NCBI RefSeq assembly: GCF_024298765.1
Contig: NZ_CP101211.1
Source: Escherichia coli
GTDB lineage: Bacteria; Pseudomonadota; Gammaproteobacteria; Enterobacterales; Enterobacteriaceae
Strand: one strand, 5' to 3'
DNA length: 64,000 nt
Below, in pieces: positions 6,001 through 9,000 of this stretch (positions within the stretch are counted from its first letter, which is position 1; every line of letters starts with the position of its first letter). Made by a program: the position numbers.

Positions 6001-9000
6001 TGGACAATAAGCATCATTTGTCACTGGCACAATGTATGGGCGTTTACATTTTTCGCAGGCACCTAGTTCTTCAATTTCTTTCATAGAAGTAAGGATTTCT
6101 ATTATTTTATTAACTTCCGGTGCGCATACAAAGTATCCCAGATTATGAAGGACACTCATTATTCGGTTGAAGTCAATTTGCCGAAAACTCGCTTCCGGAT
6201 TTATTGGATCAAAACCAAAATAGTTAACTGCGACATCAATAACAGCAGAAAAAGCTCGGCGGTTATCTGTGCGTTTGCTCCAGCCCCGGATACCTTTTTT
6301 GAGTTTTGTTTTTGCACCAGGCTCAAAATCGATATTTTCAGCAACATGATTACCGTACAAAATTCGTATTGTATTTTTATTTGCCCCAAGCGACATAGTC
6401 CTTGCTGCTCGCAATAGAGCATTAGCTTTTGTTTGATCGACCTTTGCCATATTAATAATCCTTTAACATAACTTTATTTGTTAAAGTGTTGAACACATCC
6501 TGACGGTGACTGGTGAACATAGTGTCATAACGTAATAGTTCCATCAAATCATCACTAACTTTTCCTAACCGGATGTCAGCAGACAATTCATAAGCCCAGG
6601 CAAAAACTTTCGTTTTAAGTGAAACACTCTCTTCAATATGCCCTTGTGAGAAAGCAATTGTACGTGGGAAAAGAACGACATCGTTAATTGTTTTTAACGA
6701 TGAATAACCAATGTCTTTAATAGCATCAGCTGTAGTTGGTTTTAAACCAAAGAAAACACTTACAAACTCTGGTGCGAGCATTGAGATAAAGAACACCTGC
6801 ATAAAGTAGTCATTCTGTATATCAACACATTTAGAACGCAACTCATGAATCTTCTTGGGATTATAGATATCCACTGTACCATTCAGAAAAGTCACTTTTT
6901 CACCGGCATCGTAAATACCATAGTCAATATCATTTGTATCATATTCACGAATTACATTGGAATCACCGTCCAAGACCGCAGAAAAAAACCTCTCCCATGT
7001 AATTTCCTTTCCGAGTGTACGCGGAACCAAAAAACTACCTGGACGTGTTTCCACTTCAAAAGCTAAATCAGCGGCTGTACTAAATCCTTTCCCAAATAGG
7101 CGACGCTGGAGAAGAGGAGTCCCAGTTTGATATGCAGAAGATCCATGCACAGGCAATAACATTAAAAATGCACGGTAACTACGAATAAGCGAAATCTCAG
7201 TGCGGAAAAGTTTACCGAGTAAGCTACGAGTTAAATTATCAGATTCTGACATGTGCTGATTGTCCTTGCGCCATTACAATTGTTCAAATCTTCAACATGG
7301 ATTTTTTGTTAGGTGTTCGGTAGGGTGAAAAGTAACTTTTAGTATTTTCTTAAGGCTTGAATAAGCCTTAAATCTATCCCTTCAACCACACCGCTTACTT
7401 GTAACACTTTTTAACCAAACTGACCAGAATTTTATCAAAATTTCTTCGCATGCTAACGAAATGTGAAGCGATTAAAAAAAAACCTAAATCCAGCCCCTCC
7501 CAACGTTGGATTAGAATAACGACGTCTTTCACTGACCGTCATAAACTGACATTTTTACTTTTCATCAACCTCATGCTTACATAGGATCACTAAACAAAGA
7601 AAAGTGACCCTATGAATACCTCACATAGGGTCACTTATGTTTGAAAAGTGACCCTATGTAATGTCGTCATAGGGTCACTTTTTATAAAAGTGTCACTATG
7701 GACAAAGTTCCATAGGGTCATTTTTTTTGGAAAAGTGGCACTAGATATATGTATAACTTTAATAGAGCAATGCACATTATCAAAAGCAATAATCCACAAT
7801 GGTCATTCCCTCAAAAGTAACTTTAGAGGGTAGCGATGGAAGTGAGGCTAAACTCGCTGTTACTGTTTCTGAAGGCCCCTCCCGAATGGGGGAAACAGCG
7901 AGTGCATTACATCTGTTCAATTCCCTCATCAAAGAGCATTCAAAAATCTTCTGTTCGTGAAAAAAAACGGAAATTTCCTCCGGTATAGTAATTTCACATC
8001 AGGAGGCGTCATGAGTAATTCGAATCTTATAAGTTCTATAGAGCTAACACGTAAAAATTTACGTGCTCAGATTGAAGGTTTGCGTGTTGAGGCTGAAGAT
8101 CTCATTACAAAATACTGGATCAAGTGGAAGGAACGAAACCACCAAGAGATTAACCTTACCCGACATAGCAAAGTTCCAAAGAGGGAGTATCTGGGTTCTT
8201 ACGCACCAAAAGTTGAGCTAATTGGTAATGCCAGAAAAGTAACGATCACTTGGCATCAGTTCAGCCCTTATAAAACAAGAGCGCCTAGTCACATGTCAAA
8301 ACGGGTGCAACCAATGAAAAGTGGAAAATATTCTAAGAACTGTTTTGTAAACCATGCCAGCTGGGAATACGAAATGATTTCTGAAACGGAAGCATTGCTG
8401 GAGCCTTACAGAGAAATGCTTGAGCTCTATCATTCAGCATATATCGAACTTGGACGAAAAATCCGTCAATACTCAAAAACTAAGGTGGCACAATGACCGA
8501 CGCAATTATCACGGACAATGAGCGTATTAACATTGAACCAAAAGATGTAATGGTAAAAGGTTCAAATAAAAAGCAAGGCGTAAACGCTCAAACTTCTACT
8601 CAACGTAGACCAGAGCACCAGGGTATGGCCAAAGTTATTATTAACCCCGGCACCCCAGATTTTAACCGGTTTTTAACTGCCAGAAATGGAGCAGTCATCA
8701 GAGGTTTTGATGATGTGAGTATCGCTATTTCCTCTCTCTTTAAAACGGTTGATGCAGTTAAACATCCTGACCTTGTTCAGGCTATTCAGGATTGGTTCAA
8801 CGAGCTGCATGAAGAAAACAATAAGATGAAAGAAAATCTTGTTGCTTATATTAAGTCAATTGAGTTCGACAAGAATGACTCATTCATGTCATCAACTCAG
8901 TTTGTACCTTTCAGTTTTGAACCAGTACAACTCAACTTCAATAACCACAACACCATGAGGTTTTACAAGTACATCTTCGAGATGAACCAGCTCATGAACA

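What the first reader, a model, noticed from the sequence alone, without database searches (positions are those of the whole stretch)
7578..7744. Three phased inverted repeats GTGACCCTATG-N9/10-CATAGGGTCAC between the divergent transfer operons: candidate oriT or shared operator
Three near-identical 11-bp-arm inverted repeats are spaced about four helical turns apart, with extra half-sites at 7580-7590 and 7735-7744. They lie in the 757-bp gap between the regulator/trhF operon (minus) and the relaxase operon (plus), where origins of transfer and relaxosome accessory sites usually sit. A nick site cannot be called from sequence.
Basis: partly seen in the sequence, partly recalled or inferred. 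Interest (0 to 1): 0.58.

Follow-up and report, generated by a model that had tools for sequence, protein, structure and literature searches.

The report
IncHI2 transfer-origin repeat array beside mobI
The repeats are real and lie in the transfer-origin (oriT) region of a common IncHI2 resistance plasmid, where they most likely act as docking sites for the accessory protein TraH/MobI that brings the relaxase to the origin; the location was already known from plasmid R27, but the repeat layout and its co-variation with MobI appear undescribed in the papers I could search.

Summary
The perfect 11-mer GTGACCCTATG occurs four times in the 64-kb window, all within 7604-7678 (about 0.03 expected).

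The window is an IncHI2 plasmid. The gap 7253-8010 lies between trhR (minus strand) and traH (plus strand). TraH is a Pfam MobI protein, followed by an unnamed gene, a MobH relaxase and the coupling protein. This gap is the homologue of the R27 traH-trhR region, which is reported to hold oriT.

The repeats are better described as eight alternating half-sites that form four dyad units, CATAGGGTCACTTTT-N3-5-AAAAGTGACCCTATG, with a period of 43-44 bp (7580-7745).

- **Conservation:** between IncHI2 and IncHI1 the arms are almost invariant, while the spacers and flanks have diverged.
- **Co-variation:** more distant mobI loci keep the same geometry but carry lineage-specific half-sites, changed in both arms.
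- **Association with mobI:** Leclercia plasmids carry the array and mobI with no trhR, trhY or relaxase within about 5 kb.

Best explanation (confidence about 0.6): the array is the MobI/TraH-binding domain of oriT. The nick site is probably in one of two conserved blocks flanking the array.

The "shared operator" reading is not supported. No binding, nicking or mobilisation was tested, and the MobI model shows no recognised DNA-binding fold.

Novelty is modest: a known locus with new anatomical detail.

The parts
7580..7614 (.). Dyad unit 1: CATAGGATCACTAAA-CAAAG-AAAAGTGACCCTATG
   Evidence: The left half-site is degenerate in IncHI2 and perfect (CATAGGGTCAC) in IncHI1.
7624..7658 (.). Dyad unit 2: CATAGGGTCACTTAT-GTTTG-AAAAGTGACCCTATG
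   Evidence: The 11-nt half-site cores are invariant in all six IncHI1/IncHI2 sequences of A1; the spacer varies.
7668..7700 (.). Dyad unit 3: CATAGGGTCACTTTT-TAT-AAAAGTGTCACTATG (deviant right half-site)
   Evidence: (I9). A deviant right half-site is kept at this position in IncHI1 as GTGGCACTATG, against GTGTCACTATG in IncHI2.
7711..7745 (.). Dyad unit 4: CATAGGGTCATTTTT-TTTGG-AAAAGTGGCACTAGA (strongly deviant right half-site)
   Evidence: The deviant half-site is invariant across IncHI1, IncHI2, Photorhabdus and E1V33.
7731..7759 (.). Near-invariant block AAAAGTGGCACTAGATATATGTATAACTT at the mobI-proximal end of the array; AT-rich; candidate nick or melting region (inferred)
   Evidence: Invariant in A1 apart from one position. 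L022 and L025 carry ACTAGATATATATGTA, and the Klebsiella lineages carry ACTTATGTATAAGG, although their half-sites differ.
7393..7480 (.). Left conserved non-repeat block (CTTACTTGTAACACTTTTTAACCAAACTGACCAGAATTTTATCAAAA...GCTAACGAAATGTGAAGCG). It contains a minus-strand promoter-like site, TTAGCA-16-TAAAAT, at 7456..7429. Possible trhR promoter and/or oriT component.
   Evidence: the 7394-7440 HSP is 98% identical to R27. Also present in the Leclercia module, which has no trhR. It lies inside the segment that oriTfinder reports as oriT in pGS32-1 (PMC13055346).
7328..7340 (.). Palindrome AAAAGTAACTTTT, 82 nt upstream of the trhR start; one of 17 such sites in the window
   Evidence: Conserved in IncHI1.
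7813..7825 (.). Palindrome AAAAGTAACTTTA between the array and traH. A copy occupies this relative position in every lineage examined.
7984..7989 (+). TATAGT -10-like hexamer ahead of the traH ribosome-binding site, with no good -35; candidate activator-dependent H-operon promoter (inferred)
   Evidence: Read from the sequence. The stretch CGGTATAGT is invariant in A1. The consensus scan did not call it.
8011..8496 (+). traH / mobI (161 aa), proposed binder of the array
   Evidence: Pfam MobI PF19456, E 4.8e-22. Annotated MobI(A/C). 76% identical to R27 TraH.
8493..9230 (+). Conserved 245-aa gene of unknown function between mobI and the relaxase
   Evidence: No Pfam or NCBIfam family. Syntenic in all conjugative relatives.
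9234..12386 (+). MOBH relaxase TraI (1050 aa)
   Evidence: NCBIfam NF041494 MobH, 254 bits against a cut-off of 200.
12386..14470 (+). Type IV coupling protein (TraD/TraG)
   Evidence: TIGR03743, 677 bits.
6452..7252 (-). trhR (266 aa), first gene of the divergent R operon
   Evidence: Annotated trhR in related records. 77% identical to the R27 homologue. No Pfam family.

Best explanation
The array at 7580-7745 is the accessory-protein binding domain of the IncHI2 origin of transfer. It consists of four dyad-symmetric units, eight alternating half-sites in all, repeating every 43-44 bp.

Proposed mechanism (inferred):
1. Dimers of TraH, the MobI-family protein encoded 265 bp downstream, bind each unit and build a multi-dimer nucleoprotein complex on AT-rich, A-tract-rich DNA.
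2. MobI recruits the MOBH relaxase TraI, as shown for IncC, where MobI contacts the C-terminal domain of TraI (bioRxiv 10.1101/2025.04.21.649884).
3. TraI nicks one strand in an adjacent conserved non-repeat block. The candidates are the AT-rich block 7731-7759 at the mobI-proximal end of the array, or the left block 7393-7480.

The lineage-specific half-sites, together with the cognate MobI, would set which oriT a given relaxosome recognises.

Shown here: the anatomy, the selective conservation, the co-variation with MobI lineage, and the association with mobI alone.
Inferred, not tested: binding by MobI, recruitment of TraI, the position of the nick, and the requirement of the array for transfer.
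For: 1. **Identity of the locus.** The window is 100% identical to IncHI2 plasmids such as pSTM6-275. The gene order is trhR <- gap -> mobI-orf-mobH-T4CP. The R27 gap (identical to L003) aligns along its whole length. R27 oriT is reported to lie in this gap, next to the MobI-like gene (PMC10838148; Lawley 2002 from memory).

2. **Selective conservation.** In A1 (IncHI2 against IncHI1A and IncHI1B, about 75% identity overall) all eight half-sites keep their position and nearly all of their sequence. The intra-unit spacers, the linkers and the flanks (columns 230-320 and 510-690) are diverged.

3. **Same geometry with lineage-specific cores in 13 loci.**
- IncHI1, IncHI2, Photorhabdus: CATAGGGTCAC
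- L022 (MobI 55% identical): CATAGTGTYAC
- L025 (MobI 59% identical): CATAGAGTCAC
- Klebsiella/Pluralibacter: CATTGGTAAC
- pLVPK-like/K. grimontii: CATTAGTACY
- K. variicola: CATTTGTGAA
- Leclercia/ESNIH1: YATGTTYAAC
The changes appear in both arms and in all units. Within-unit spacing stays at 18-20 bp.

4. **Association with mobI alone.** Leclercia rep_cluster_2218 plasmids (9 records) have mobI. In the three loci of this lineage that I read (L014, L016, L018) the array sits upstream of mobI. L014 and L016 have no trhR, trhY or relaxase annotated or found as an ORF within about 5 kb. Their only other conserved neighbour, a 213-aa gene, has no homologue in the window.

5. **Divergence pattern.** Between two Klebsiella lineages whose half-sites differ, MobI is the most diverged neighbour: 93%, against 97-98% for TrhR, TrhY and orfX.

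6. **Literature.** MobI self-associates, binds the C-terminal domain of TraI and sets oriT selectivity in IncC (bioRxiv 10.1101/2025.04.21.649884). IncA/C oriT is an AT-rich set of inverted and direct repeats directly upstream of mobI (PMC5587640).

7. **Composition.** GC is 0.37 in the array against 0.46 in the window.
Against: - No binding, nicking or mobilisation data exist for this sequence.
- The AlphaFold model of TraH is confident (pLDDT 92). It is a long helical hairpin with a small sheet at the tip. It matches only generic coiled-coil or prefoldin-like structures and no solved relative by sequence, so it shows no recognised DNA-binding fold.
- oriTfinder places the oriT of an R478-like plasmid in the 252 bp next to trhR (window about 7238-7488), which excludes the array (PMC13055346). 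I argue this may be a BLAST segment boundary, but I could not see the reference entry.
- Natural variants have 2, 3 or 5 units instead of 4, so no fixed number of units is required.
- All half-sites share AAAAGTNAC with a palindrome found plasmid-wide, so a different protein could read part of each site.
- The primary R27 paper could not be read, so I do not know how far the repeats were already described or dissected.
Confidence: 0.6

Rival explanations
1. The array is a transcriptional control element (operator or upstream activating site) for the divergent R (trhR-trhY) and H (traH-traI...) operons. It would be bound by TrhR/TrhY, HtdA, or by TraH acting only as an autoregulator, and would not be needed in cis for transfer.
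For: - It lies between two divergent operons.
- The H operon is activated by TrhR/TrhY (PMC7366339), and its -10-like TATAGT has no good -35.
- In IncA/C the oriT overlaps the mobI promoters (PMC5587640), so the two roles can coexist.
Against: - The array is at least 125 bp from the only promoter-like site on the trhR side and about 240 bp from the TATAGT ahead of traH. It cannot act by occluding a promoter.
- The 11-mer is absent, even with 2 mismatches, from the trhY-trhF gap 5345-5937, which should hold the TrhR/TrhY-dependent F promoter.
- The array persists in Leclercia loci with no trhR or trhY nearby.
- TrhR and TrhY are 98% identical between two Klebsiella lineages whose half-sites differ.
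Confidence: 0.15
2. The repeats act as hairpins in single-stranded DNA of the transferred strand. Possible roles are relaxase recognition or termination, or a single-strand promoter or priming signal in the recipient, rather than duplex protein-binding sites.
For: - Both strands fold far better than shuffled sequence (-40 and -37.6 kcal/mol, z = -8.7 and -7.7).
- The only biochemically studied MOBH relaxase (gonococcal island TraI) needs an inverted repeat 3' of nic on single-stranded DNA (PMC6736028).
Against: - The arms are conserved in sequence, not merely in complementarity, across IncHI1 and IncHI2.
- Deviant half-sites that break pairing keep their positions (GTGGCACTATG in IncHI1, GTGTCACTATG in IncHI2 against CATAGGGTCAC; GTGGCACTAGA invariant).
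- A strict 43-45 bp period and a fixed 18-20 bp within-unit spacing are not needed for independent hairpins.
- Four to seven copies exceed what one nick site needs.
- Rfam finds no known structured RNA.
Confidence: 0.1
3. The array is an iteron or centromere-like set for replication, partition or incompatibility, and sits next to the transfer genes by accident.
For: Phased repeat arrays of similar size are typical of plasmid iterons and centromeres (general knowledge). The window contains another large repeat array (81 bp x 11).
Against: - There is no rep or par gene next to the array in any of the 13 loci. The constant neighbour is mobI.
- The array moves with mobI into an unrelated replicon, Leclercia rep_cluster_2218.
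Confidence: 0.03

Closest known systems
oriT of IncHI1 plasmid R27 (traH-trhR intergenic region; Lawley et al. 2002, J Bacteriol 184:2173, recalled from the abstract; the paper is not held in the library)
   Same: Same gene order and a homologous sequence. The R27 gap of 757 bp aligns end to end with 7253-8010. All eight half-sites are conserved in position and nearly all in sequence, as are both flanking blocks. TraH is 76% identical.
   Different: This is the IncHI2 version. The flanks and spacers have diverged by about 25%, half-site 1 is degenerate, and unit 3 has a different deviant base. Nothing was tested experimentally on the IncHI2 sequence. I could not check how finely the R27 oriT was dissected.
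oriT of IncA/C plasmids (Hegyi et al. 2017, PMC5587640) and of SXT/R391 ICEs (Ceccarelli et al. 2008)
   Same: A cis-acting, AT-rich set of inverted and direct repeats immediately upstream of a mobI gene that is essential for transfer, in a MOBH1/MPF-F system. The nick site is unmapped there too.
   Different: - The repeat motifs are unrelated, and IncC MobI is not BLAST-similar to TraH (E 0.044).
- IncA/C oriT is about 150 bp, abuts mobI and overlaps its promoters. Here the array is a regular 44-bp-period set of dyads that ends 265 bp before traH.
- The relaxase gene is adjacent here but roughly 50 kb away in IncC.
Solitary oriT-mobI modules of mobilisable islands such as MGIVchHai6 (PMC7449626)
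   Same: In the Leclercia plasmids and the Escherichia sp. ESNIH1 contig, a mobI gene with its own upstream repeat array stands without a relaxase nearby. This is the arrangement used by islands that borrow the IncC relaxase.
   Different: These modules belong to the TraH/IncHI branch of MobI and sit on plasmids. Their mobilisation by any helper is untested.
Multi-site accessory-protein domains of other oriTs: F/R100 TraM sbmA-C, R388 TrwA sbaA/B, RP4 TraJ 19-bp inverted repeat (cited in PMC5587640)
   Same: Repeated dyad sites beside nic are bound by a small oligomeric accessory protein that helps load the relaxase and also lies between divergent transfer promoters.
   Different: The proteins are unrelated (ribbon-helix-helix and others). 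TraH/MobI has a different predicted fold. The number and regularity of sites here (4 units, up to 7 in Leclercia) is higher.

Membership tests
oriT of MOBH1 elements with a MobI accessory factor | Lies immediately upstream of a MobI-family gene | tested here: met
   The 8011-8496 product matches Pfam MobI PF19456 with E 4.8e-22 and is annotated MobI(A/C). The array ends 265 bp upstream of it.
oriT of MOBH1 elements with a MobI accessory factor | The element encodes a MOBH relaxase, a coupling protein and an F-type mating apparatus | tested here: met
   MobH NF041494 scores 254 bits (cut-off 200). TraD TIGR03743 scores 677 bits. TraF-like and TraH/TrhH are present. PLSDB typing is MOBH, MPF_F.
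oriT of MOBH1 elements with a MobI accessory factor | Homology to an experimentally mobilised oriT fragment (R27 traH-trhR gap) | tested here: met
   The alignment is end to end, and BLAST gives one segment 7238-7759 at 75% identity. That the R27 fragment was mobilised rests on Lawley 2002 (from memory) and on PMC10838148.
oriT of MOBH1 elements with a MobI accessory factor | Confers mobilisation in cis when cloned | not testable with these tools
   Needs mating assays with an IncHI2 helper at permissive temperature.
oriT of MOBH1 elements with a MobI accessory factor | Contains a relaxase nick site | not testable with these tools
   No MOBH1 nick site has been mapped, and attempts failed for IncA/C (PMC5587640). 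Only candidate blocks can be named: 7731-7759 and 7393-7480.
oriT of MOBH1 elements with a MobI accessory factor | The repeats are bound by MobI | tested here: inconclusive
   For: half-sites co-vary with MobI lineage and occur with mobI alone. Not for: the model shows no recognised DNA-binding fold.
IncA/C-type oriT (sequence family) | Shares the IncA/C repeat motifs (IR1-IR6, 14-bp direct repeats) | tested here: not met
   The pAR060302 region upstream of mobI has different repeats. The MobI proteins are not BLAST-similar.
Operator shared by divergent promoters | Overlaps or abuts the core promoter elements it controls | tested here: not met
   The nearest promoter-like site, 7456..7429 on the minus strand, is 125 bp from the array. 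The TATAGT at 7984-7989 is about 240 bp away. These are consensus scans only.
Operator shared by divergent promoters | Co-occurs with its regulator genes (trhR/trhY) and recurs at co-regulated promoters | tested here: not met
   The array is present with no trhR or trhY nearby in Leclercia. The motif is absent from the F-operon upstream region 5345-5937.
Known structured RNA (Rfam) | Match above a family's gathering score | tested here: not met
   Only sub-threshold generic hairpin (miRNA-type) matches, at most 31 bits against gathering scores of 50-440.
Replication iterons or partition centromere | Adjacent to rep or par genes | tested here: not met
   The neighbours in all loci are transfer genes or mobI alone.

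The most novel reading that the evidence does not exclude
The array and MobI may form a portable 'specificity cassette' for the IncHI branch of MOBH elements. Phased dyads whose core sequence co-evolves with MobI would define mutually exclusive oriT identities. The cassette can leave the conjugative plasmid, as in the solitary modules on Leclercia plasmids, to parasitise IncHI-type transfer machines.

In addition, every half-site embeds AAAAGTNAC, which is half of a 13-bp palindrome present 17 times in this window and 12 times in 35 kb of R27, mostly upstream of genes. A single, still unidentified plasmid factor might therefore couple transfer initiation to a plasmid-wide regulon.
Probability: 0.2. 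Interest if true: 0.65.

Novelty: new member of a known kind. Interest (0 to 1): 0.4.

Why it matters
IncHI2 plasmids are major carriers of mcr-1, mcr-9, ESBL and heavy-metal resistance genes. This gap matched 1,376 plasmid records.

- **Annotation.** The oriT of these plasmids is annotated only by homology. The oriTfinder call reported for one R478-like plasmid covers the 252 bp next to the array rather than the array itself.
- **Biochemistry.** No nick site or accessory-protein binding site has been defined for any MOBH1 system. A regular array of four dyads, with a clear consensus and natural specificity variants, offers a tractable substrate for TraH/MobI footprinting, relaxosome reconstitution and nick mapping.
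- **Epidemiology.** Lineage-specific half-sites could predict which IncHI-type helpers mobilise which plasmids. That includes plasmids typed as 'non-mobilizable' that carry only the array and mobI.

Tried and rejected
- **Primary papers.** The R27 papers (PMC134963, PMC105367) and the SXT oriT paper (PMC2493277) are not held. What I say about them is from memory or from citing papers.
- **oriTDB supplement.** It gave no R27 coordinates.
- **oriTfinder call.** For pGS32-1 it maps to window about 7238-7488 and excludes the array. With default blastn scoring, the R27 gap aligns as one segment, 7238-7759. With reward 1 / penalty -2 the top segment is 7238-7480. The published boundary is therefore probably where IncHI1-IncHI2 similarity collapses, not a functional limit. 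This is plausible but unproven.
- **'3-5 places per record' in BLAST.** This looked like extra copies elsewhere. Local BLAST shows they are shifted and opposite-strand self-matches of the array. I did not scan whole plasmids outside the window.
- **L021.** This locus has canonical half-sites with a MobI only 54% identical, which looked like a counter-example. Its mobI is a frameshifted pseudogene on a 3.6-kb contig.
- **Rfam.** Nothing above threshold.
- **Protein families.** Pfam and NCBIfam found nothing for TrhR, TrhY or the 245-aa ORF.
- **IncC comparison.** No sequence relationship.
- **Literature search for the motifs as strings.** No relevant paper.
- **Genome scan for more mobI loci.** Only 5 loci were returned.
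Full report
**What is there**

The perfect 11-mer GTGACCCTATG or its complement occurs four times in the 64-kb window, all between 7604 and 7678, against about 0.03 expected. The window holds 13 perfect inverted repeats with 11-bp arms and 3-12 nt spacers, against a mean of 0.17 in Markov simulations. Six of the 13 are in this array.

**Identity of the locus**

- The gap 7253-8010 is 100% identical to many IncHI2 plasmids, for example pSTM6-275, and 98.9% identical to R478.
- On the minus strand it is flanked by trhR (6452-7252), then trhY and the trhF/trhH pilus genes.
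- On the plus strand it is flanked by a 161-aa gene that matches Pfam MobI (E 4.8e-22; R27 name TraH), a 245-aa gene of unknown function, a MobH relaxase and the coupling protein.
- R27 has the same arrangement. Its 757-bp gap is identical to the IncHI1A locus I aligned.
- By my recollection of the abstract of Lawley et al. 2002, the traH-trhR intergenic region of R27 was cloned and mobilised. PMC10838148 states that the MobI-like genes of SXT and R27 lie directly next to oriT. I could not read the primary paper.

**Anatomy, revised**

Aligned with IncHI1A and IncHI1B gaps, the array resolves into eight half-sites of alternating orientation. They start at 7580(-), 7600(+), 7624(-), 7644(+), 7668(-), 7686(+), 7711(-) and 7731(+), counted as 15-mers of the form CATAGGGTCACTTTT.

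All eight are conserved in position and nearly all in sequence across about 25% overall divergence. That includes the deviant sites (GTGTCACTATG or GTGGCACTATG in unit 3; GTGGCACTAGA in unit 4). The short spacers, the linkers and the DNA on both sides of the array (alignment columns 230-320 and 510-690) have diverged freely.

In 13 related loci the constant distance is from a (-) half-site to the following (+) half-site, 18-20 bp start to start. The next interval varies: 24-26, 37-38 or 44 bp. The functional units are therefore four dyads, CATAGGGTCACTTTT-N3-5-AAAAGTGACCCTATG, at 7580-7614, 7624-7658, 7668-7700 and 7711-7745. The period of 43-44 bp is about 4.2 helical turns, so the phasing is approximate.

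**Comparative evidence**

I collected mobI loci at decreasing similarity from plasmids, genomes and metagenome assemblies. Every one has an array in the same place with the same geometry but its own half-site core:

| Lineage | Half-site core |
|---|---|
| IncHI1, IncHI2, Photorhabdus (MobI 86% identical) | CATAGGGTCAC |
| L022 (MobI 55% identical) | CATAGTGTYAC |
| L025 (MobI 59% identical) | CATAGAGTCAC |
| Klebsiella pRJBSI76-1, Pluralibacter (about 40%) | CATTGGTAAC |
| pLVPK-like plasmid, K. grimontii | CATTAGTACY |
| K. variicola | CATTTGTGAA |
| Leclercia, Escherichia sp. ESNIH1 (about 38%) | YATGTTYAAC |

The changes are present in both arms and in all units of a lineage. This is what a change of protein specificity would produce.

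Unit number varies naturally. There are seven half-site pairs in Leclercia L014, of which five are well conserved, and fewer in ESNIH1. Photorhabdus has three units. The IncHI2 plasmid pRHB16-C13_2 has two units (an 89-bp deletion), and pGD27-70 has five (a 35-bp duplication).

**Which protein?**

- Nine Leclercia/Enterobacter plasmids of an unrelated replicon have mobI. In the three loci of this lineage that I read, the array sits upstream of it.
- L014 and L016 have no trhR, trhY, 245-aa gene or relaxase within about 5 kb. MOB-suite types them as non-mobilizable.
- Their only other conserved neighbour, a 213-aa 'DNA-binding protein', has no homologue in the window.
- Between two Klebsiella lineages with different half-sites, MobI is 93% identical, while TrhR, TrhY and the downstream ORF are 97-98% identical.

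MobI is thus the only protein that consistently accompanies, and diverges with, the array. In IncC, MobI self-associates, binds the C-terminal domain of the relaxase and determines which oriT is processed (bioRxiv 10.1101/2025.04.21.649884). Direct DNA binding has not been shown there either.

**Flanking conserved blocks and the nick site**

Two non-repeat blocks are conserved well beyond the lineage-specific half-sites.

- The right block, 7731-7759 (AAAAGTGGCACTAGATATATGTATAACTT), is near-invariant in the IncHI group. It recurs as ACTAGATATATATGTA in L022 and L025, and as ACTTATGTATAAGG in the Klebsiella lineages.
- The left block, 7393-7480, is 98% identical to R27 over 7394-7440. It contains a minus-strand promoter-like site (7456..7429). 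It is recognisable in the Leclercia module, which has no trhR downstream.

Either block could contain nic. This is inference only, since no MOBH1 nick site has been mapped (PMC5587640).

oriTfinder places the oriT of an R478-like plasmid at a 252-bp segment corresponding to window 7238-7488 (PMC13055346). That segment covers the left block but not the array. With megablast-type scoring, the best R27-IncHI2 segment ends at 7480, where similarity collapses. The reported boundary may therefore be an alignment artefact, but I could not verify the database entry.

**Rival readings**

- **Operator for the divergent operons.** This is unlikely. The array is at least 125 bp from any promoter-like site. 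The motif is absent from the F-operon upstream region, which is also TrhR/TrhY-dependent (PMC7366339). The array also exists with no trhR or trhY nearby.
- **Single-strand hairpins.** These are energetically plausible (z about -8). An inverted repeat 3' of nic is needed by the gonococcal MOBH relaxase (PMC6736028). However, conservation of arm sequence, of pairing-breaking deviant sites and of strict spacing argues for duplex recognition. The two roles are not exclusive.
- **Iterons or centromere.** Not supported by gene context.
- **Structured RNA.** Rfam finds no RNA family.

**Comparison with known systems and novelty**

- The locus is the IncHI2 counterpart of the R27 oriT region. Functionally it resembles the repeat-rich, mobI-proximal oriTs of IncA/C and SXT/R391.
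- Its repeats and its MobI are not sequence-related to those of IncC.
- Its regular 44-bp dyad array is more ordered than the IncA/C set of inverted and direct repeats.
- Neither motif string appears in any paper of the searchable library.

I file it as a new member of a known kind. The location is already known. The new details are the four-dyad anatomy, the co-variation with MobI and the solitary array-mobI modules. Interest is moderate (0.4).

**Seen in passing**

A 13-bp palindrome, AAAAGT-N-ACTTTT, occurs 17 times in the window against 0.41 expected, and 12 times in 35 kb of R27. Nine of the 17 sites are intergenic, against about 27% non-coding sequence by a crude ORF call, mostly 57-220 nt upstream of starts.

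Two copies flank the array (7328 and 7813). A copy lies between the array and mobI in every lineage. Each array half-site begins with the same AAAAGTNAC. Which protein reads this palindrome is unknown.

Noticed in passing
window 4268, 6887, 7328, 7813, 11236, 12674, 14404, 19306, 24355, 24481, 38635, 43684, 47896, 52065, 53100, 58817, 61041: The 13-bp palindrome AAAAGT-N-ACTTTT occurs 17 times (at most 1 mismatch) against 0.41 expected, and 12 times in 35 kb of R27. Nine of the 17 sites are intergenic, mostly 57-220 nt upstream of gene starts. One copy lies between the array and mobI in every lineage, and the array half-sites share its first 9 nt. It is a candidate plasmid-wide operator with no binder identified.
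   Followed up: partly
window 63013-63915: An 81-bp tandem repeat array (11.2 copies, 81% match) with internal perfect inverted repeats and a recurring GTCACCCTGTG. It is unannotated in PLSDB records. It is conserved across about 1,100 IncH-type plasmids at widely varying identity. It may be an iteron or centromere array.
   Followed up: partly
L014 1915-2212, L016, L018 (Leclercia / Enterobacter / Escherichia sp. ESNIH1): A solitary array-mobI module sits on rep_cluster_2218 plasmids that are typed non-mobilizable. No relaxase or other tra gene lies within about 5 kb. These may be hidden mobilisable plasmids that use an IncHI-type helper.
   Followed up: partly
L007 (pRHB16-C13_2), L008 (pGD27-70), L024 (Photorhabdus), NZ_CP122769.1: The number of dyad units varies naturally: an 89-90 bp deletion leaves two units, a 35-bp duplication gives five, and Photorhabdus has three. 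The repeats therefore recombine.
   Followed up: partly
L009 (pMB3093_1, IncFII/IncR, Enterobacter hormaechei) 4001-5164: A fragment of an IncHI1 oriT region is embedded in an F-type plasmid next to IS1. It holds only the last half-site, the right conserved block, an intact mobI and a truncated downstream ORF.
   Followed up: no
window 7852-7861 / 7894-7903: A GC-rich nested hairpin (ACTCGCTGTT...GGCCCCTCCCGAATGGGGG...AACAGCGAGT) lies between the array and traH. It is present in IncHI2 but not conserved in IncHI1, and no T-run follows it.
   Followed up: no
window 5830-5863: An 18-bp tandem repeat (TAATATTTAAGTTGTAAC x 1.9) lies in the trhY-trhF gap, where the TrhR/TrhY-dependent F-operon promoter should be.
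   Followed up: no
window 27991-28090: Further perfect inverted repeats with 11-bp arms at 27991/27992 and 28058. These are the only ones in the window outside the oriT array and the 81-bp array.
   Followed up: no
L021 (Escherichia sp. E1V33, 3.6-kb contig): An IncHI-type array with canonical half-sites lies next to a frameshifted, decaying mobI.
   Followed up: partly
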